The position numbers and the translations under genes are program-made. From positions 2,709,202-2,773,201 of the forward strand of contig OZ252088.1 of the NCBI GenBank assembly GCA_965248065.1: a DNA stretch of 64,000 bases. The letters run 5' to 3'. Below the pieces are notes generated by a model. It did no database searches. It was not told the DNA's origin and saw only the letters and a program-made list of their open reading frames with translations. The stretch's first letter is position 1, and each line of letters opens with the position of its first letter. The stretch is from Dehalococcoidia bacterium. Its GTDB lineage: Bacteria > Chloroflexota > Dehalococcoidia > Lucifugimonadales > Australimonadaceae. Below are positions 6,851 through 55,942 of the stretch, piece after piece.

Positions 6851-7183
6851 CTACGGCGGGATCGAGCGGGCAAGCTGCTCCAGGGTAAACGGCTCTCCGG
6901 TCAAGCCAGCGGCCATCGCGGGCGTTACGTCCAGCCCGTTCTTGCGGAGGGTCGAGTGCGGGCGAATGTAGTTGTAGTAGACCGTATGCAAGGCGACCGC
7001 ATGACGGTGCTTCAATAGGCTCTTGGAGAAGGAGTCGGCCTGGCGGGTATAGCGCTTCACCGACATGCGTAGGGTCTTGTTGTATCGTTCGATGTAATTC
7101 GTGTGCATGATGGACGTGTCGGGGTCGCCTATGACGATTTCCTTCCTGATGCCGAACAAGCCGCCAGGAGAGCCGCCCGGCAC
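6851..7183 (-). pseudogene. IS1-family transposase C-terminal remnant
   Basis: GDPDTSIMHTNYIERYNKTLRMSVKRYTR...SFSK...YYNYIRPHSTL...TPAMAAGL. 5' part is missing and truncated next to REP sequence. Confidence 0.75.
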
Positions 7184-7426
7184 TCAATCCGTCATTGCCT
7201 CGAAAATAGGGCTCCGCAGAGGTGGCTTTAGCCATCCTCTACCCCCCTCCCGTCATTCCCGCGAAGGCGGGAACCTAGGATGCCCCCCGCGCCCCACGTA
7301 CCTGTAGGGGCGTCCCTTGTGGGCGCCCCCGCCCAATAGGTTCGCCGTCCCCAACGCTCCCGTCCCCTCCTTGCCAAGGAGGGGCTAGGGGTGGTTCCGT
7401 CTGCGCGGGGGAGGACACCCACCCCC

Positions 7427-7456
7427 TTGACGCCATAGACAATCCTATGTCATAAT
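7427..7456 (+). promoter_or_regulatory. Putative sigma70 promoter upstream of terL
   Basis: TTGACG (7427) - 18 nt - CATAAT (7451), with TG at 7448-7449 (extended -10 position). Confidence 0.5.
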
Positions 7457-7504
7457 AACATCACACGCCAACATACACCCAACACACCGAACCCCCGAGC
7501 GGAC

Positions 7505-7542
7505 GAGCCGCCGGAGCCACAGCAAGGCCCGGCGGCTCTTTT
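7505..7542 (+). terminator. Terminator/attenuator-like hairpin in the terL leader
   Basis: GAGCCGCCGG (7505-7514) pairs with CCGGCGGCTC (7529-7538), followed by TTTT. Confidence 0.5.
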
Positions 7543-7578
7543 CGTTCCGCCGGGCGCCGCCCACGAAAGGAGGACCCC

Positions 7579-9028
7579 ATCAAACGCTCACGCCCCAAGG
7601 ACACCCCCATCGACCTCTCACCATACCGCGACGACCCCCTCGGCTTCGTCAAAGACATCCTCTCCGGCTCCGGCACGCCCTACGCCAAGCAGGAAGAGCT
7701 CCTCCGAGCCCTCGTCAGCGACAAACGCCGCGTCTCCGTCGTCGGATGCAACTCCTCCGGCAAGGACTGGGCCGCCGCTCGCGCCATCCTCTGGTGGATC
7801 GAGACACGCCCCAAAGCCAAGGTCATCGTCACCGCCCCCACCCTCCGCCAGGTCAAGGAGATCGTCTGGGAGGAGCTCCGCGCCGCCCACGCCGCCGCCA
7901 AACACCGCCTCTCCGGTTCCGTCCGCGTCGGCGAGTACCGCGCCGGCCCCGACCGCGTCGGCCTCTGCATCACCTCCAACAACCAGCACAATCTTCAGGG
8001 CTTCCACTCCCCGGAGCTCCTCGTCATCGTCACCGAGGCCCAGGGCGTCAAGCAGCCCTACTTCGAGGCCCTCAAACGCCTCAACCCCAAGAAGATGCTC
8101 CTCCTCGGCAACCCCCTCTCTCTCACCGGCGAGTTCTACGACTCCCACCACGGCAAGAGCCCCCTCTACGAGCGCGTCTCCATCTCCGCCTACGACTCCC
8201 CCAACGTCCAGGAGGGCCGCCTCGACGCCCTCCCCGGCCTCGTCACCCCCGAGGACGTGGAGGAGCGCCGCCAGGAGTGGGGCCCGGACTCCCCCCTCTA
8301 CATCGCCTCGATCCTCGGCGAGTTCCCCGAGGCCCTCGAAGACTCCCTCACCTCCCGCCCCCACGTGGACGCCGCCGTCGAGCGCTGGCGCCGCGAGTCC
8401 CCTTCCGTCATTCCCGCCTGCGGGAGGGGACGCGCGAGCGCAGCAAAGCGCGGGGGAGGCGGCCCCCCTCATCCCGCCCAGCGACGGCCCCCACCTCAAC
8501 CAGCCCTGGCGCATGGGCGTGGACGTCGCCCGGTTCGGCAACGACAAATCCGTCATCTGCCTCCGCCGCGGCGACCGCGTCGAGCGCCTCATCGCCTTCG
8601 AACGCAAGGACACCATGCGCCTCGCCGACGAGGTACGCGAGATCGCCGAGACCCTGCGCGTCCCCGCCGTCTTCGTCGACGAAACCGGCGTCGGCGGAGG
8701 CGTGGTCGACCGTCTGAAGCAGCTCCGCGTCCCCGTCATCGGCGTCGAGGGCGGCGGCAAAGCCTACCGCCCCGCCCAGTTCGCCGACATGCGGGCCGAG
8801 ACGTTCTGGGAGGTGGCGCGCCGCCTCCGCGAGGGCCAGATGTCCCTCCCGCCCGACGACGAGCTGGCAGGCCAGCTCCTGGCCCAGCGCTACGACATCT
8901 CGTCGGCGGGGCGCATCCACCTCGAAAGCAAGGCGACGCTCCGCCGTCACGGCGTCCCCTCCCCCGACAAAGCCGACGCCCTAGCCCTCGCCTTCATGGA
9001 GCCCCCCAACATGAACGTCTGGTTCTAA
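7579..9028 (+). CDS. Solitary phage terminase large subunit (ATPase + RNase H-like nuclease); ATC start; 2-nt frameshift at ~8421
   Basis: The frame open from 7459 encodes DPLGFVKDIL...YAKQEELL...GCNSSGKD...IVTAPTLRQVK...VIVTEAQG...LLGNP...ILGEFP. The second frame encodes GVDVARFGND, FVDETGVGGGVVDRL and SPDKADALALAF. SD AAAGGAGG at 7566-7573 precedes ATC 7579. Confidence 0.85.
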
Positions 9029-9096
9029 CCATGCCCCGCCATTCCGTCCCGGTATCCTGCTGCGCTCCCTGCGCCCGGTGGGTGTACAATCGCGCG

Positions 9097-11124
9097 GTGG
9101 CAAGGCTCTACCGCTACTCCCGGTGGGACGGCTCGCAGGAGCCGTTCGAAGCCGATGCCGGAGCGCTCCTCGACGCCATGGCCGAGGACGTTATCGACCA
9201 CGGCGATGTTCGCCGCGCTCTTCGCGACCTCCTCCGGCGCGGCGCCAACGGAGACGACACCCGTCTTCCCGGACTCCAAGACCTTCTCGAACGGCTGGGC
9301 TCGCGCCGCAGGGAGACCCTCGACCGGTACGACATGGACTCGGTCATGCGCGATCTCAAGGAGCGTCTCGACGACGTGCTCCAGACCGAGCGCGCGGGCA
9401 CGGACCGGCGCCTCGGCGAGATCGAACAGGACCTCGCCCGCATGAGCGGCGAGGAGGCGGAGCAGGCCGGCAAGCTGCGCGACCTCTTCCGGCAGCGGGC
9501 CGACCGCAATCGCGAACGTCTCGATCAGCTCCCCCCGAGCACCGCGGGCGCTCTGCGCGAGCTCCAAGATTTCGACTTCATCGACCCCGAGGCCCAGCGG
9601 AAGTTCCAAGAGCTGATGGACGAGCTCCGCAAGGAGATGCTCGGCTCCGTCGCCTCCGAGATGCGGCAGCAGATAGAGAGCATGGACCCGGAGCAGATGG
9701 CCCAGGCGCGCGAGATGCTGCGCGACCTGAACCAGATGATGCGGGACAAGCTCGCCGGTCTGGAGCCCGACTTCGAGGGCTTCATGGACAAGTGGGGGGC
9801 CATGTTCGGCGACGACCCGCCGCGCAGCTTCGACGAGCTCATGGAGATGCTCGCGCGCCAGATGGGGCAGATGCAGTCCCTGCTCGACAGCATGTCGCCG
9901 GAGCAGCGGCGCGAGCTGTTCGAGGCGATGAACTCCGCCATGGACGGCGACACCGCCGGCGAGCTCGCCGAGCTCGCCGCGAACCTCGGCCAGCTGCTCC
10001 CGTTCGACGACTTCTCGGAGCAGTACCCGTTCCTGGGCGAGGAGAACCTGACCCTGGAACAGGCGATGAACGTCATGGGCGAGATGCAGTCGATGGACGA
10101 CCTCGAAGCGCAGATCCAGCAGGCGATGCGCCGGGGCGACCTCGACGAGCTCGACGCCGACATGCTCGAAACCATCCTCGGGGAGGAGGCCCGCCAAGAC
10201 CTGGACCGGCTCGCGGAGATGGCGAAGCGGCTGGAAGAGGCGGGCTATCTGCGGCGGAACGGCGACCGCTTGGAGCTGACCCCGGCCGGCGTGCGGAAGA
10301 TCGGCCAGAAGGCGCTGCGCGACCTGTTCGGCGACCTCCGCAAGGGCCGCGCGGGCGACCACGAGCTAACGCTGAGGGGCTCCGGCGGCGAGCACACGGA
10401 CGAGACCAAGCCCTACGAGTTCGGCGATCCGCTGGAGATTCACCTGCACCGCACCATCATGAACGCCATCGAGCGTCAAGGCATCGGGACGCCGGTCAAG
10501 GTCGGCATCCAGGACTTCGAGGTCAGACGCACCGAGCACATGGTGCAAGCCGCCACCGTTCTGCTCATCGACCAGAGCCGGTCGATGGGGCTGTTCGGCT
10601 CGTGGGGGGCGGCCAAGCGGGTGGCGCTGGCGTTGGAGGCGCTGATACGCGGCAAGTTCCCCCGCGACCGCTTCTGGATGCTCGGCTTCTCCGACTACGC
10701 CGTCCCCATCAGCGCCGACGACCTCCCGACGCTCTCGTGGAACGCGTGGGTGTCGGGCACGAACATGCAGCACGCCTTCGCCATGTCGCGCCGTCTGCTC
10801 GCCCCCTACAAGGACTGCTCCAAGCAGATCCTGATGATCACGGACGGCGAGCCCACGGCCCACCTGGAAGGGACGCGGGCCTACTTCAACTATCCCCCGA
10901 CGCACCGCACCATCCAGGAGACCCTGCGGGAGGTCCGCCGCTGCACCGCCGAGGGCATCACCATCAACACCTTCATGCTGGAGACGAGCTACTACCTCCT
11001 CGATTTCATCGACCACGTAACCCGGATCAACAACGGCCGGGCGCTATATACGTCGCCGTCCAATCTGGGGCAGTACGTGCTGGTGGACTATCTGAATAAT
11101 CGGCGTCGGCGGGTGGTGAGTTAG
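9097..11124 (+). CDS. VWA-domain protein (YRYSRWDGSQ N-terminus; mycobacterial Rv0959-like)
   Basis: GTG 9097, coiled-coil N-region, MIDAS DQSRSMG, GTN and ITDGEPTAH motifs. Confidence 0.87.
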   Translation: MARLYRYSRWDGSQEPFEADAGALLDAMAEDVIDHGDVRRALRDLLRRGANGDDTRLPGLQDLLERLGSRRRETLDRYDMDSVMRDLKERLDDVLQTERAGTDRRLGEIEQDLARMSGEEAEQAGKLRDLFRQRADRNRERLDQLPPSTAGALRELQDFDFIDPEAQRKFQELMDELRKEMLGSVASEMRQQIESMDPEQMAQAREMLRDLNQMMRDKLAGLEPDFEGFMDKWGAMFGDDPPRSFDELMEMLARQMGQMQSLLDSMSPEQRRELFEAMNSAMDGDTAGELAELAANLGQLLPFDDFSEQYPFLGEENLTLEQAMNVMGEMQSMDDLEAQIQQAMRRGDLDELDADMLETILGEEARQDLDRLAEMAKRLEEAGYLRRNGDRLELTPAGVRKIGQKALRDLFGDLRKGRAGDHELTLRGSGGEHTDETKPYEFGDPLEIHLHRTIMNAIERQGIGTPVKVGIQDFEVRRTEHMVQAATVLLIDQSRSMGLFGSWGAAKRVALALEALIRGKFPRDRFWMLGFSDYAVPISADDLPTLSWNAWVSGTNMQHAFAMSRRLLAPYKDCSKQILMITDGEPTAHLEGTRAYFNYPPTHRTIQETLREVRRCTAEGITINTFMLETSYYLLDFIDHVTRINNGRALYTSPSNLGQYVLVDYLNNRRRRVVS

Positions 11125-11161
11125 GGTTGTGCGGGCCTGCAACTTGGTTTAGTATGTAGTC

Positions 11162-11413
11162 ATGTCCACGACCACACTCAATATCCACGAGGCGAAGACG
11201 CACCTCTCCGAGCATCTTGCCAAGCTGAAAGAGGGCGACCGGATCGTCCTCTGCCGCCGCAACCACCCCATCGCGGAGATTCTGCCCATCCCAGAGCGCG
11301 ACTCCACCCCTCGCCCCTTTGGCCTCGGCAAGGGACTAGCGGAGATCCCCGACTCGTTCTTCGACCCGCTTCCCGACGATCTGCTCGACCTCTTCGAAGG
11401 CAAAGGCGAGTAG
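11162..11413 (+). CDS. Phd/YefM-family (VapB) antitoxin
   Basis: LNIHEAKTHLSEHL N-terminus, RPFGLGKG...FFDPLP C-terminus, directly upstream of a PIN toxin. Confidence 0.88.
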   Translation: MSTTTLNIHEAKTHLSEHLAKLKEGDRIVLCRRNHPIAEILPIPERDSTPRPFGLGKGLAEIPDSFFDPLPDDLLDLFEGKGE

Positions 11414-11426
11414 GGCGGTCGGGAGC

Positions 11427-11809
11427 GTGCGGCTGCTGCTCGACACCTCTGCGTTCATCTGGCTGGCGGAAGGCGAGAGGCTGAGCGAGTCGGCCCGCGA
11501 CCTGATCTCGGACGCCTCCAACGACGTCTTCCTGAGCGCCGTGTCCGCATGGGAGATATCCATCAAACACGGCCTCGGACGGCTCGTCCTGCATTTGCCC
11601 CCGGACGAGTATGTCCCGCAGCAGCGGCGGCTTCACCGAGTGGAGCCGCTGCCCGTCACCGAGGCCGCCGCGTTGCAGGTAGGCAAGCTGCCGGGTCTTC
11701 ACCGCGACCCGTTCGACCGGCTCATCGTGGCGCAAGCCATCGTCGAGGGCTGACCGTGGTGACTTCCGACCGCCTGATTAGCATGTACCCTGTACCGGTC
11801 GTGTGGTGA
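11427..11809 (+). pseudogene. VapC PIN-domain toxin, 1-nt frameshift at ~11749 (possibly sequencing error)
   Basis: LLLDTSAFIW...SAVSAWEI...HRDPFDRLIVAQAIVEG. The expected tail LTVVTSDRLISMYPVPVVW* continues in another frame after a G-run one base short. Confidence 0.85.
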
Positions 11810-28771: not shown

Positions 28772-29535
28772 GCTGGCTCCGTGACGACGTCGACGCGCTT
28801 CACCGGCGTGATGGACGCCGTCGTCACCTCGCAGCCGATGCCGTAGAACTCGACGCCCGCGCGGGCGGACGCGGCCACAGCGACGGCGAAGGCAGGGTCA
28901 GCGGGATGCATGGCGACGGCGCGGGCGTCGGCGCGCTGGACCACGAAGAAGACGGCGGCCCGCTCGCCTTGGGCGACCGCCTTGGCCAGCTCCTCGACGT
29001 GCTTGCGGCCGCGGACGGTAGGGGCGTCCGGAAACAGCGCCACGCCGTCCTCGACGAGATTGCAGTTCTTCGCCTCGCCCCAGCACCGGTCCTCCCCTAC
29101 CCTCGCGGACGGGCGGCCGGGAAGCTGGGCCGGGCCCTCGAACAACAAGTCGAGCCTGCTCGCACCGTAGGCAACCTCCCTCCGGACGCGCTCGAAGTCG
29201 TTGAACTCAGGGAGTAGCCCGGCCCGCCACGCCTCGATCACGATGCCAGGAGGCCGCCGGGAGTCAACGCCGACCCACCGCCCTCCGTACTCGACCAGCT
29301 CGACATCGAAGCTCGTCCGGCGTTTGGGGGACGCGGCATGCCGCAGCAGGACGCTTGCGCCCGGCACGAAGAGCTCCGCCATGCGCCCCGAATTGGGGAC
29401 GTGCGCCAGCTGCAACGAGCCGTCAATCTCCACCTCGGCGGCGAACCGGTTGGGCCGGCGGACGAACGTTGCGATTAGGCTCGGGGCGGGAGCGGGGGGT
29501 ACGGAAGTTGTCGGTCTGCTATCGTCGTTCGTCAT
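28768..29535 (-). CDS. sfsA: SfsA-family DNA/RNA nuclease
   Basis: RRPNRF...AHVPNSGRMAEL, SRLDLL, EAKNCNLV, FPDAPTVRGRKHVEEL. Start uncertain. Confidence 0.88.
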   Translation of the reverse strand: MTNDDSRPTTSVPPAPAPSLIATFVRRPNRFAAEVEIDGSLQLAHVPNSGRMAELFVPGASVLLRHAASPKRRTSFDVELVEYGGRWVGVDSRRPPGIVIEAWRAGLLPEFNDFERVRREVAYGASRLDLLFEGPAQLPGRPSARVGEDRCWGEAKNCNLVEDGVALFPDAPTVRGRKHVEELAKAVAQGERAAVFFVVQRADARAVAMHPADPAFAVAVAASARAGVEFYGIGCEVTTASITPVKRVDVVTEPA

Positions 29536-29719
29536 ATCATCCGGCGGCTCCGAGGCCTTTGGGCGGCGTCCCGGCCCCGTCCAGTGGCTCTGTGGAGCGG
29601 GGGGTGGCGACACTCCATCGTAGGGGGCGCGGGGGGATTGGGCAATGGGCAAGTGTCAGTGGTAACTGTTCAGAGCTGATGAGGCGGTTGAGACGATTCT
29701 AAGTCTGATGCGTGAATCT

Positions 29720-30332
29720 TCACGGGGCAATGCCGATAAGAACCAGCGGGACCGCGGGAACTCCGCGCCCTTGCCGGAGCACGTTCAGCAAATCTCGTTC
29801 GTAGTAAGGAACACCGGAGGACATTTCCCGTTCCAGTTCCTTCATAGGAAGTATCTCGATACCCACGTCAATGATGTCCGACACGTAGAAGCTGAGATGC
29901 TTCACAAACAGGTCGTGTGCAACAAAAGCGTACTTGCCTAATTGGACTTCCACCGCAACACGATCTTTCACGAAGTCGGTCTGGTTGTAAGACATTATCG
30001 GCGATTGCCCGGGCTTGCTCTATCGCCTGTTTCTGTTGGCCCTCTGGCAAATCGTAAATGCTACGTAGGAGCTTCTCGTCAGCAGTTACCCAGAAGGTAT
30101 TCCGACGCTCGCTCCATCCTAACGCTTCAAACCCATCCTTGAAGGCTTGATTCATGTCGGCGGGGGAGAACAGCGTTCTGCCTCGCATCGTCTTCTCCTT
30201 TGAGACTTTGGTCCGGCAGGCGAAGGCATCGATCCCTACTATCACGCTTTGCACTTCCTCCCACAACTGCTTGCGGTGAACGAGCAGATATTCCTCGCCA
30301 TTGAGGTGTGAGTAGCGAGCCTTGATCTGCAT
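29720..30332 (-). pseudogene. BstYI/BglII-family type II restriction endonuclease, +1 frameshift at ~30011-30013
   Basis: YSHLNGEEY...SYNQTDFVKDRVAVEVQLGKY...GRGVPAVPLVLIGIAP closely follows the BstYI sequence as I recall it. Removing one base gives 203 aa. Confidence 0.88.
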
Positions 30333-31258
30333 CAGTGTCCCCCATTGGGCTTCGCAGGATCGTAGATTGGCTTCCCCATTGGGCGAGTCCGGAGGTTCCC
30401 CATATGCAATTGGTGTACTCGTTGTCGAGCAATATCCACATACTCAGAAACAATGTCACACCCGTAGGCGGCACGGCTGTGCCTGAGCGCGGCAACGACG
30501 GATGACCCAACTCCCATATATGGATCGAATACCGCGTCCTTCGCATTGGTCATGGAAAGGACGAGGCGCTCCACTAGTTCAACGGGAAACTGGCAAGGAT
30601 GGATCGTCTTCTCCGGGTGGTTGTTCTTGACATTCGGGAATTCCCACACATCGCTCGGATTCTTACCCTTTGGGTTTCCCGACAGCTTGCCGATGTTCGG
30701 ACCCTTGAAATAGCGCTTGCCTGGATACTTTGACGGAACCCTGATCGGATCGAGATTCCATGTATAGTCGTCATTCTTCATCCACCAGTTAATAGTCTCG
30801 TATCGCCCGGATAACCGCCTTGTGGAATGCAGACCGTGCCCGAAGTGCCAGATGATCCGATTGCGGAGCTTGAGTCCCTGATTGCGGAACATGGGGTAGA
30901 GGACGGCGTCGAGGGGGACGATCTCCCCGTTATTGACGTAGTTTCCGACCTGCCAGCAAATCGATCCCTGAGGATGGAGAACTCGAACACACTCGCTGAT
31001 TACGCGCTCTTGTGCCTTAAGATAGTCGTCGAGTGACGTCTTGGCCTCGTAGTCCTTGCCCAAGTTGTACGGGGGTGAAGTAACGACTAGCTTCATCTGC
31101 CCATCGGGAAGCCTCTTCATAAAGGCAAGGTTGTCTTCGCAGGCTAGGACGATTTGGTCGTTAGTGGTCACTCGACCAGCCAGCGATGCCGCAGAGGCGA
31201 AAGCCAGCTTCCCTGAGGTGCCTTTCGTGAAGGGTTGAGACTCACTGGTATATTGCAT
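30332..31258 (-). CDS. Beta-class N4-cytosine/N6-adenine DNA methyltransferase (cognate of the BstYI-like REase)
   Basis: TSPPY motif IV, HPCQFP, FDPYMGVGSS motif I. TGATG overlap with the REase start. Confidence 0.92.
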   Translation of the reverse strand: MQYTSESQPFTKGTSGKLAFASAASLAGRVTTNDQIVLACEDNLAFMKRLPDGQMKLVVTSPPYNLGKDYEAKTSLDDYLKAQERVISECVRVLHPQGSICWQVGNYVNNGEIVPLDAVLYPMFRNQGLKLRNRIIWHFGHGLHSTRRLSGRYETINWWMKNDDYTWNLDPIRVPSKYPGKRYFKGPNIGKLSGNPKGKNPSDVWEFPNVKNNHPEKTIHPCQFPVELVERLVLSMTNAKDAVFDPYMGVGSSVVAALRHSRAAYGCDIVSEYVDIARQRVHQLHMGNLRTRPMGKPIYDPAKPNGGH

Positions 31259-31345
31259 GGGAGAAGACCTCTCTCAGCGCATTTCGAGTCAATCCTGTAT
31301 ACTACGATACTCTCAATATGCAAGGGGGCGTTGGCATGCAAGGGG

Positions 31346-31470
31346 GTAACTGTTCAGACTTCGTGTGGTCCGTCTCGCCCAGCGGTCTCACCGATAGCAC
31401 GGTTTACCTCTGACCAGATCGTTACCCACGCTCTCCGCAGGCATTCGCCTCATCAACTCTGAACAGTTAC
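31346..31470. mobile_element. 125-bp MITE with TIR GTAACTGTTCAGA
   Basis: GTAACTGTTCAGA at 31346-31358 and TCTGAACAGTTAC at 31458-31470. No ORF; no TSD found. Confidence 0.65.
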
Positions 31471-31659
31471 GCGGGAAGGCCCACTGTCCATGCCGCGGGG
31501 GTGGACGGCGAGACCGGCGTCCCTCAGCGTCTCCCTCCGGCTTAGAGTGACGCTGCCGAAGGTTCCCGCCTTCACCAAGGACCGCATCGCCTGGGCAGGC
31601 AGGTTGAACAGGGGATGTTCGAACGCAGGTCCGCCGCGCCGCTGTTGTATAGTCCGGAC

Positions 31660-31839
31660 ATGGAAATTCGCCAGTGCGACGAGTGCGGGACGCCGGTCGA
31701 GACAAGCGTCGACGGCGTGGTCCAGTGCCCCACGTGCCTGACGACGTACGTCGATTCCCAGCTCACGGACGACACCATCATCGAGGAGAGTCTCTCCCTC
31801 AGCGACGTCCTACGCATGGTCAGCGAGGCCCAGCGGTGA
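31660..31839 (+). CDS. Small zinc-ribbon protein
   Basis: CDEC...CPTC, 59 aa. Stop overlaps the GTG start of the enoyl-CoA hydratase. Confidence 0.7.
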   Translation: MEIRQCDECGTPVETSVDGVVQCPTCLTTYVDSQLTDDTIIEESLSLSDVLRMVSEAQR

Positions 31840-55668: not shown

Positions 55669-55942
55669 CCCCTTCCGCCATTCCCGCCCCCTTCCGCCAT
55701 TCCCGCCCCCCTCCGTCGTTCCCGCGAAAGCGGGAATCCAGGGTGCGCGCCACGCCCCACCCCTAGCACCCTTCCCAATCGGTTCGTGGTGAGCCCGTCG
55801 AACCACGCCGCCCGCCAACCAACCCCAATCCTCTCCACCGTCTGCGGGGGAGAGTTAGAGAGGGGGCCGTCTGCTGGGAACCTCGCCCCCCTCATTCCCT
55901 CGCGCCCCCTTCCGTCATTCCCGCGCAGGCGGGAATCCAGGG
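55669..55942. repeat. Mosaic of REP palindromes from three families
   Basis: Tandem CCGCCATTCCCG units, TTCCCGCGAAAGCGGGAATCC, GGTTCGTGGTGAGCCCGTCGAACC and GTCATTCCCGCGCAGGCGGGAATCC. Confidence 0.75.

What the first reader, a model, noticed from the sequence alone, without database searches (positions are those of the whole stretch)
29662..31470. BstYI-like R-M system packaged between MITE ends (transposase-free cassette)
A complete 125-bp MITE lies on the right and an inverted copy of its 25-bp right end lies on the left, bracketing only MTase and REase. Inference: a non-autonomous composite element mobilised in trans, a compact way to move R-M immunity. No target duplication was recognisable.
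Basis: partly seen in the sequence, partly recalled or inferred. Interest (0 to 1): 0.65.

Follow-up and report, generated by a model that had tools for sequence, protein, structure and literature searches.

The report
Decayed restriction-modification genes between IS66 ends
A horizontally acquired BstYI-type restriction-modification gene pair, with an intact methylase and a frameshifted nuclease, sits between two ends of an IS66-family insertion sequence, so it looks like a transposase-free mobile cassette, but nothing shows it ever moved as one unit.

Summary
The repeats are real. 31346-31470 is a 125-bp MITE, and 29662-29686 is an inverted 24/25 copy of its right end. The only genes between them are a methyltransferase and a BstYI-type nuclease.

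New findings:
- **Parent element.** The ends belong to a ~1.43-kb single-ORF IS66-family element (ISBst12 group). It is abundant in Dehalococcoidia MAGs and makes 8-bp target duplications (42/56 IS copies, 14/24 MITEs).
- **Nuclease.** The gene carries a +1 frameshift upstream of its catalytic residues. Contigs of four sequencing runs show the same frameshift, so only the methylase is intact.
- **Left junction.** Synteny with three ~90%-identical relatives stops exactly at 29661, the base before the left terminus.
- **Not a clean insertion.** Relatives carry a different gene there (orf218, with or without a hicB-like gene), and about 130 bp right of the MITE is unique to the window.
- **No sign of unit movement.** Neither the MITE nor the 1,809-bp unit has a target duplication. 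No second copy was found, and no other non-transposase cargo lies between such ends.
- **A proven vehicle elsewhere.** Homologous R-M pairs ride in autonomous IS1595-family transposons with perfect duplications.

Verdict: the architecture resembles a mobile insertion cassette, unit mobilisation is unproven, and it is a new member of a known kind.

The parts
29662..29686 (+). Solo 25-nt IS66-family terminus, of the type found at the transposase-proximal (IRL) end. It is inverted relative to the MITE's right end. Similarity to the family stops after nt 25.
   Evidence: It is 24/25 identical to the terminus at 31446-31470. Position 15 is C, where 212 of 223 family ends have T. Synteny with relatives ends at 29661.
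29687..29719 (.). 33-nt spacer of unknown origin between the solo terminus and the nuclease stop codon.
   Evidence: It matches no IS/MITE copy, R-M homologue locus or relative.
29720..30332 (-). BstYI-type restriction endonuclease pseudogene. A +1 frameshift near 30008-30013 lies upstream of the codons aligned with BstYI D119/E128/Q130.
   Evidence: Logan contigs of four runs carry the same sequence with no gaps.
30332..31258 (-). Intact type II DNA methyltransferase, 308 aa, beta-class N6_N4 with an SPPY motif. Its stop codon overlaps the nuclease ATG.
   Evidence: Full-length homologues are 75-90% identical.
31259..31345 (.). Region upstream of the methylase. Homology to other R-M loci stops at 31291. 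The 11-nt direct repeat ATGCAAGGGGG lies at 31318-31328 and 31336-31346 and abuts the MITE.
31346..31470 (+). Complete 125-bp MITE of the ISBst12-group IS66 family, with termini 31346-31358 and 31458-31470. It is high-copy in the source metagenome. This copy has no target duplication.
   Evidence: (L060, 96% identical). Depth is 300-880 against about 3-8 in the bins either side, with many different flanks at 31470/31471.
31471..31601 (.). Right-flank DNA specific to the window (GC 0.70). It is absent from relatives, and synteny resumes at about 31602-31635.

Best explanation
The segment is a horizontally acquired BstYI-family type II R-M gene pair. It now consists of a live methyltransferase and a frameshifted nuclease. 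It lies in a hypervariable spot between sfsA and a Zn-ribbon gene of a probable Dehalococcoidia genome. It is bracketed by termini of an ISBst12-group IS66-family element: one complete 125-bp MITE and one solo 25-nt terminus in inverted orientation. The 1,809-bp unit therefore has the build of a transposase-free mobile insertion cassette.

Shown: the ends belong to an active IS/MITE family that makes 8-bp duplications, the left terminus is joined to the chromosome exactly where synteny stops, and the cargo is foreign by composition.

Inferred: an IS66 transposase supplied in trans placed the unit at the TGTCAGTG target. A later deletion or substitution adjacent to the right end then removed the right-hand duplication and the neighbouring orf218. 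After the nuclease decayed, the unit persisted as a solitary methylase.
For: - **Family.** The terminus pattern hit at least 115 stretches, almost all in Dehalococcoidia MAGs. ~1431-bp copies encode one IS66-family transposase (PF03050; NF033517, 244 bits). Perfect 8-bp duplications flank 42/56 IS copies and 14/24 MITEs. ISDge4, an ISBst12-group IS, has near-identical ends (GTAACTGCTCAGCA), a 449-aa transposase and an 8-bp repeat (PMC12898284).
- **Same MITE elsewhere.** L060 holds a 96%-identical copy with a perfect duplication.
- **End pairing.** MITEs with an IRL-type terminus at both ends also have perfect duplications (L037, L039, L101).
- **Left junction.** Synteny with L120, L121, L122 and L124 ends at 29661.
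- **Solo terminus.** Its 25 nt cover every conserved IR position, 1-13, 15-17, 20 and 22.
- **MITE without a duplication.** This is expected if the right end last moved together with the left end.
- **Foreign cargo.** GC is 0.53 against 0.66-0.69. The cargo is 85% identical at DNA level to R-M pairs at unrelated loci.
Against: - There is no 8-bp duplication around the unit, so one extra event must be assumed.
- About a quarter of full-length IS copies and about 4 in 10 MITEs also lack a perfect duplication, so its absence is weak evidence either way.
- The unit is single-copy in the source metagenome.
- It was absent from 84 R-M homologue loci and from a junction-pattern scan.
- No non-transposase cargo was seen between such ends elsewhere.
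- The solo terminus has a rare base at a conserved position.
- No transposase gene lies in the 64-kb window.
- Any such cassette must first form somewhere, and forming it in place needs no extra transposition step.
Confidence: 0.42

Rival explanations
1. The arrangement was assembled in place and never moved as a unit. An IS66-family element or MITE first inserted at the TGTCAGTG target. The R-M DNA arrived later by an unrelated route and replaced everything beyond nt 25 of that element. The 125-bp MITE inserted independently beside it. A deletion next to its right end then removed its duplication and orf218. On this reading the inverted termini are a by-product of a MITE-rich, hypervariable spot.
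For: - The spot is hypervariable: relatives hold orf218 with or without a hicB-like gene, plus spacers of different lengths.
- The MITE family is very abundant in the sample, at 300-880x against about 3-8x in neighbouring bins.
- Neither the unit nor the MITE has a duplication.
- The unit is single-copy.
- The solo terminus carries a rare substitution.
- Other contigs in the same sample show a copy of the adjacent 47-nt motif followed at the same offset by an ordinary IS66 terminus.
- This route needs fewer events in total than forming the cassette elsewhere and then transposing it.
Against: - The truncation must have stopped just after the last conserved IR position.
- The route by which the R-M pair arrived is left unexplained.
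- No remnant of another vehicle, such as IS1595 repeats, was found.
Confidence: 0.35
2. The whole variable segment (cassette plus the ~130 bp of unique DNA) entered by homologous recombination in the conserved flanks (sfsA and the Zn-ribbon/enoyl-CoA hydratase genes), coming from a diverged relative. It is an allelic substitution of the kind described for many R-M loci. The termini played no part at this site.
For: The locus is a substitution, not an insertion or deletion. Furuta et al. 2010 classed 116 of 760 R-M locus pairs as substitutions (PMC2853133).
Against: This only moves the question of how the cassette formed into the donor. The left breakpoint falls exactly at the IS terminus, not inside conserved flank DNA. 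No donor allele was found.
Confidence: 0.15
3. The arrangement is an assembly artefact: the contig was wrongly joined through the high-copy MITE.
For: No short-read contig spans 31398-31443, because the MITE is repeated.
Against: Single contigs bridge sfsA, the left terminus and the nuclease gene (29400-29794), then the methylase and the left half of the MITE (31033-31398), then the MITE's right end and the Zn-ribbon side (31443-31700), in four runs. In relatives, sfsA and the Zn-ribbon gene are neighbours.
Confidence: 0.03

Closest known systems
Transposon-like R-M units flanked by inverted repeats (Furuta, Abe & Kobayashi 2010, PMC2853133: Xanthomonas oryzae 65-bp repeats, Neisseria gonorrhoeae 26-bp repeats)
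   Same: Type II R-M genes without a transposase lie between terminal inverted repeats of about 25-65 bp. [quoted passage not shown]
   Different: Those units have 8-bp target duplications and clean empty sites, and their repeats were unique to the unit. Here the repeats belong to an identified high-copy IS/MITE family, there is no duplication or empty site, and the nuclease is dead.
Mobile insertion cassettes (MICs, e.g. the IS231-derived MIC231 of Bacillus cereus; from my own knowledge of the ISfinder nomenclature)
   Same: The ends come from an IS family, there is no transposase, and passenger genes lie between the ends.
   Different: Defining evidence for MICs includes target duplications and mobilisation by the parent transposase. 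Neither is met here. One end is a whole MITE rather than a bare repeat.
ISBst12 group of the IS66 family (e.g. ISDge4, PMC12898284)
   Same: The parent IS found in related MAGs has a single ~450-466-aa DDE_Tnp_IS66 transposase, terminal repeats beginning GTAAC and an 8-bp duplication. Its ends differ from those of ISDge4 by only 1-2 bases over the first 13.
   Different: The window holds only non-autonomous derivatives: a 125-bp MITE and a solo terminus.
IS1595-family transporter IS carrying the same R-M family (L205 and L145, found here)
   Same: The same BstYI-type methylase-nuclease pair travels as cargo of a DDE transposon, with an 8-bp duplication.
   Different: Those elements are autonomous: the transposase gene overlaps the methylase start. 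They have different terminal repeats (GGGA[AT]TTATAG...), perfect duplications and an intact nuclease. The window holds no remnant of these repeats.
BstYI R-M system (R^GATCY; PDB 1sdo)
   Same: The nuclease is colinear with BstYI over 202 of 203 residues (E 1e-85), and a beta-class methylase gene lies next to it, translationally coupled.
   Different: The nuclease reading frame is broken. The specificity and the methylated base were not tested.

Membership tests
IS66 family, ISBst12 group (the ends and their parent IS) | DDE_Tnp_IS66 transposase encoded as a single ORF, without tnpA/tnpB | tested here: met
   L007 and L042 elements carry PF03050 (E 1e-36 to 1e-40), zf-IS66 and NF033517 (244 bits, cut-off 180). 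Each ~1431-bp element has one long ORF. The transposase is found in related MAGs, not in the window.
IS66 family, ISBst12 group (the ends and their parent IS) | Terminal inverted repeats beginning 5'-GTAA | tested here: met
   All three window termini and 223 ends in the loci begin GTAACTGTTCAGA.
IS66 family, ISBst12 group (the ends and their parent IS) | 8-bp target site duplication | tested here: met
   Met for the family: 42/56 IS copies and 14/24 MITEs are perfect. Not met for either element in the window.
MITE (31346-31470) | Short, non-coding, with terminal inverted repeats related to an IS, and multi-copy | tested here: met
   125 bp with 13-nt perfect termini. Sample depth is 300-880 against about 3-8 in neighbouring bins, with many different flanks. 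A 96%-identical copy lies in L060.
MITE (31346-31470) | Target duplication flanking this copy | tested here: not met
   The flanks are GCAAGGGG and GCGGGAAG, matching at 4 of 8 positions.
Mobile insertion cassette / non-autonomous cargo transposon (29662-31470) | IS-family inverted repeats at both ends, no transposase, passenger genes inside | tested here: met
Mobile insertion cassette / non-autonomous cargo transposon (29662-31470) | Target duplication at the outer ends | tested here: not met
   The outer flanks are TGTCAGTG and GCGGGAAG.
Mobile insertion cassette / non-autonomous cargo transposon (29662-31470) | Evidence of movement: a second copy, or a clean empty site in a relative | tested here: not met
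   Inner junctions sit at single-copy depth. There were 0 hits for the junction pattern and no IS66 end near 84 R-M homologues. Relatives show a substitution, not an empty site.
Mobile insertion cassette / non-autonomous cargo transposon (29662-31470) | Mobilisation by the parent transposase in trans | not testable with these tools
   This needs a transposition assay.
Composite (compound) transposon | Two complete copies of the IS/MITE flanking the cargo | tested here: not met
   The left element is only 25 nt. Similarity to all family members ends at 29686.
Type II R-M system, BstYI/BglII family | Nuclease homologous to BstYI with an adjacent methyltransferase | tested here: met
   1sdo E 1e-85, PADLOC REase_II E 4e-90 and MTase_II E 2e-79, PF09195 and PF01555.
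Type II R-M system, BstYI/BglII family | Intact nuclease reading frame including the catalytic D119/E128/Q130 equivalents | tested here: not met
   The gene is 613 nt. A +1 frameshift at about codon 105-108 puts the catalytic motif in a separate 91-aa ORF. Contigs of four runs show the same frameshift.
Type II R-M system, BstYI/BglII family | RGATCY specificity and the type of base methylated | not testable with these tools
   The SPPY motif suggests N4-cytosine methylation. That is inference from established motif knowledge only.
IS1595-family transporter IS (considered as the vehicle) | IS1595 transposase next to the methylase gene and GGGA[AT]TTATAG terminal repeats | tested here: not met
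   No transposase hit and no such repeat in the window. Both are met in L205 and L145.

The most novel reading that the evidence does not exclude
The 1,809-bp unit is a working mobile insertion cassette. ISBst12-group IS66 transposases resident in Dehalococcoidia would then mobilise a methylase (with or without nuclease) cassette in trans. Together with the IS1595 transporter elements found here, this would mean BstYI-type R-M systems in this uncultured class spread mainly as cargo of DDE transposons. It would be the first R-M cassette tied to an identified IS/MITE family.
Probability: 0.2. Interest if true: 0.5.

Novelty: new member of a known kind. Interest (0 to 1): 0.3.

Why it matters
R-M genes flanked by inverted repeats, possibly mobilised in trans, were described in 2010, but the source of those repeats was unknown. 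Here the repeats can be traced to a specific, abundant ISBst12-group IS66/MITE family. That makes the trans-mobilisation idea directly testable with a known transposase.

The locus also illustrates the usual fate of such systems: the nuclease decays and the methylase is kept. Among the four closest homologue loci examined, the three L002-L004 loci independently carry truncated nucleases, while L001 has an intact one.

The side finding may be the more useful lead. The same R-M family rides in autonomous IS1595-family transposons with perfect target duplications. This bears on how defence genes move in uncultured Chloroflexota.

Tried and rejected
- **Exact-protein look-ups** of the window's methylase and SfsA found nothing on record.
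- **Rfam** scan of the whole window gave no hit.
- **Promoter and terminator scan** of 29500-31700 was no better than shuffles.
- **Junction-pattern scan** of metagenome contigs (IS66 core within 65-95 nt of the conserved 3' end of the nuclease gene) gave 0 hits.
- **Terminus scan of viral contigs** gave 0 hits.
- **Plasmid search** with the cassette found only distant methylase homologues, 65-72% identical.
- **Right flank 31471-31640**, the 33-nt spacer and the methylase upstream region were searched against the relatives and all loci. Nothing beyond the known synteny appeared.
- **Target-site consensus** was sought in 56 perfect duplications. None was found, so site preference does not explain the left joint.
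- **TSD-guided search for cargo units over 1.7 kb** between IS66 ends found only IS nested in IS.
- **IS1595 origin for the window cassette** was considered and rejected: there is no terminal repeat or transposase remnant.
- **A 5-nt match between the right flank (GCGGG) and L124's sequence after the target** was considered as a duplication remnant and rejected. Only 3 nt are shared by all relatives.
- **Plasmid homologues of the IS1595 transposase** (35-40% identity) have no adjacent R-M genes.

Full report
**Observation.**
Arms 29662-29686 and 31446-31470 form a 25-nt inverted repeat, 96% complementary. Arms 31346-31368 and 31448-31470 form the termini of a 125-bp unit. The 13-mer GTAACTGTTCAGA occurs exactly three times in 64 kb, at 29662(+), 31346(+) and 31470(-). 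With up to two mismatches allowed, 0.49 hits were expected, and no shuffle of 100 reached three.

The only credible genes between the outer ends are two. One is a 308-aa N6_N4 methyltransferase (30332-31258, minus strand; PF01555, E 3e-52). The other is a BglII/BstYI-fold nuclease. GC is 0.53 inside, against 0.69 to the left and 0.66 to the right.

The nuclease gene is broken. Pfam places profile positions 1-72 in ORF 29868-30332 and positions 71-163 in ORF 29720-29995. The gene is 613 nt long, one base too many. Alignment with an intact 203-aa homologue (L001) places the extra base in GCCCGGGC, near 30008-30013.

Read through, the protein is colinear with BstYI (PDB 1sdo) over residues 2-203, E 1e-85. 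The residues aligned with BstYI D119, E128 and Q130 lie downstream of the shift. That these are the catalytic residues is my own knowledge. Logan contigs from four runs of one sample cover 29828-30333 with no gap or mismatch, so the frameshift is not an error of this assembly alone.

The methylase is full length and 75-90% identical to thousands of homologues. Its TSPPY motif suggests N4-cytosine methylation, which is inference only.

**What the ends are.**
Almost all were Dehalococcoidia MAGs.

- In these loci the termini bound a ~1431-1455-bp element with one long ORF.
- That ORF is an IS66-family transposase: PF03050 E 1e-36 to 1e-40, zf-IS66, and NF033517 at 244 bits against a cut-off of 180.
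- The single-ORF build, repeats starting GTAAC and an 8-bp duplication match the ISBst12 group. Its member ISDge4 has ends GTAACTGCTCAGCA, a 449-aa transposase and an 8-bp repeat (PMC12898284).
- Perfect 8-bp duplications flank 42 of 56 full-length copies and 14 of 24 MITE-sized copies.
- The two IS ends differ beyond nt 17. The transposase-proximal end reads ...[GC]TTGATGAGG[CT]GAAT, with the start codon at nt 23-25. The distal end reads ...GTTGAGGGGAAG.

In the window, both outer termini are of the proximal type. The inner terminus at 31346 is the second end typical of this MITE subfamily. L060 holds a 126-bp copy 96% identical to the window's MITE, with a perfect duplication.

In the source metagenome, the right part of the MITE has depth 300-880, against about 3-8 in the bins either side. 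Many different sequences follow 31470/31471. The MITE is therefore a real, mobile, high-copy element, and its parent IS has been identified.

**The left end.**
The left copy is only a terminus. Similarity to every family member stops after nt 25. Those 25 nt cover all conserved positions, 1-13, 15-17, 20 and 22. Position 15 is C, where 212 of 223 ends have T.

**The site in relatives.**
SfsA homologues 86-92% identical led to four syntenic contigs: L120, L121, L122 and L124. DNA identity is ~90% up to 29587. A 61-76-nt block then runs to 29661, which is exactly the base before the left terminus. Identity resumes at 31602-31635.

In relatives...GGGCAAGTGTCAGTG is followed by CG.GGCTTGGGG and a 188-218-aa gene with no family match (orf218). 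L120 and L121 also carry a hicB-like gene there. The locus is therefore a substitution in a hypervariable spot, not a clean insertion. Positions 31471-31601 match nothing in the relatives.

The relatives are roughly equally distant from the window, so I cannot say which state is ancestral.

**Has the unit moved?**
I found no evidence that it has.

- The flanks are TGTCAGTG | unit | GCGGGAAG, and GCAAGGGG | MITE | GCGGGAAG.
- The unique inner junctions (29687-29720 and 31292-31345) sit at baseline depth in all four runs.
- The closest R-M homologues are L001 (methylase 88%) and L002-L004 (85%). They share 84-86% DNA identity only across 29720-31258/31291, lie at unrelated loci and lack the terminus.
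- None of 80 further homologue loci from JGI metagenomes has the terminus within 4 kb.
- A junction-specific pattern found nothing.
- Among larger units bounded by these ends, all cargo is nested IS: DDE_Tnp_1, IS1182-like and IS66.

**Weighing the models.**
Three points favour delivery as a unit. The left joint is exact. The solo terminus keeps precisely the conserved repeat. The MITE lacks its own duplication, which is expected if its right end last moved together with the left end.

Several points argue against it. One more event must be assumed, namely an end-adjacent deletion that removed the right duplication and orf218. Any such cassette must first form somewhere. Forming it in place needs no extra transposition.

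Roughly a quarter of IS copies and four in ten MITEs lack a perfect duplication, so its absence here is not decisive either way. I put unit mobilisation at about 0.4, assembly in place at about 0.35, allelic replacement through flanking homology at about 0.15, and misassembly at about 0.03. Against misassembly, contigs bridge each junction and relatives confirm that the flanks are neighbours.

**Comparison with what is known.**
Furuta et al. 2010 (PMC2853133) described R-M genes flanked by 26-65-bp inverted repeats with 8-bp duplications and empty sites. They proposed trans-mobilisation as a non-autonomous transposon. The idea is therefore known.

What is new here is that the repeats can be assigned to an identified IS/MITE family. 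What is missing is the duplication, the empty site or a second copy. The unit fits the architecture of a mobile insertion cassette but fails the mobility criteria. It is not a composite transposon, because the left element is only 25 nt.

**A more solid vehicle for this R-M family.**
- In L205 the gene order is IS1595-family transposase (NF033547, 175 bits), methylase (80% identical to the window's), intact 203-aa nuclease, then orf76. These lie between perfect 24-nt repeats (GGGAATTATAGTGAATTTTACCCA, 8942-11801) flanked by the 8-bp duplication ATTGGTTA.
- L145 holds a second such element, 2,668 bp long, with duplication CAAACTTG and a transposase 49% identical to that of L205.
- L127 and L128 keep only the first 135 residues of such a transposase.
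- No trace of these repeats exists in the window.

The family therefore does travel as transposon cargo, but the proven vehicle is a different, autonomous element.

**Verdict.**
This is a new member of a known kind, of modest interest.

Noticed in passing
L205:8942-11801 and L145:3052-5719 (related loci); truncated versions at L127/L128:3507-3917: Homologous BstYI-type methylase-nuclease pairs are cargo of autonomous IS1595-family transposons. The transposase gene overlaps the methylase start. The elements have perfect or near-perfect terminal repeats (GGGA[AT]TTATAG...) and perfect 8-bp duplications (ATTGGTTA, CAAACTTG). The two transposases are only 49% identical, which suggests an old partnership.
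   Followed up: partly
window 29609-29657: A 47-49-nt motif (GACACTCC...GCAAGTGTC) directly left of the solo terminus is 92-95% conserved in relatives while its surroundings vary. In the source metagenome it is multi-copy (depth 25-140 against 5-11) with unrelated flanks. In a few contigs a diverged copy is again followed, at the same offset, by an ordinary IS66 terminus. It has no Rfam match and its function is unknown.
   Followed up: partly
L002:6927-7226, L004:6927-7226, L003:6927-7034: Three of the four closest homologue loci examined (methylase 85% identical) have nucleases truncated to 99 or 35 aa beside an intact methylase. The L002/L004 truncation point (window equivalent about 30018) lies within about 10 nt of the window's frameshift. 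The nuclease has decayed repeatedly while the methylase was kept.
   Followed up: partly
window 1-64000: RGATCY is under-represented: 19 sites against 78.5 expected under a first-order Markov model. GATC is the most depleted 4-mer palindrome (ratio 0.58). Several other 6-mer palindromes (GTGCAC, ACGCGT, CCCGGG) are equally or more depleted and AGATCT is not depleted, so this cannot be attributed to BstYI alone. There is no RGATCY site inside the cassette.
   Followed up: partly
window 31318-31328 and 31336-31346: The 11-nt direct repeat ATGCAAGGGGG occurs twice, 18 nt apart, 60-88 nt upstream of the methylase start. The second copy abuts and overlaps the first base of the MITE. It could be an operator or promoter element, or a rearrangement scar.
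   Followed up: no
L120:7739-7957 (also L122, L124), corresponding to window 29587/29601: Relatives carry a ~220-nt insert upstream of sfsA that the window lacks. The insert is built of repeated GGGGAAGTT / AACTTCCCC units. It looks like another small repeat element.
   Followed up: no
L120:6462-6848 and 6954-7610; L122:6944-7600; L124:6901-7467: The sfsA/Zn-ribbon intergenic spot is a variable island. It holds orf218, which matches no Pfam, NCBIfam or PADLOC family, in all relatives. A hicB-like antitoxin gene is present in L120 and L121 only, and spacer lengths differ.
   Followed up: partly
window 31365-31449 (variants in runs X1, X3, X4): The sample contains mini-variants of the MITE that lack 80-83 internal nt, leaving essentially the two termini. 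It also contains tandem MITE copies separated by 23 nt.
   Followed up: no
window 7188-7276 and 55829-55866: Short stretches resemble internal parts of IS66-bounded MITEs from other MAGs (L009, L047). They include the hairpin GTCATTCCCGCGAAGGCGGGAAC, which also occurs inside the L078 and L097 MITEs. No IS66 terminus lies beside them.
   Followed up: no
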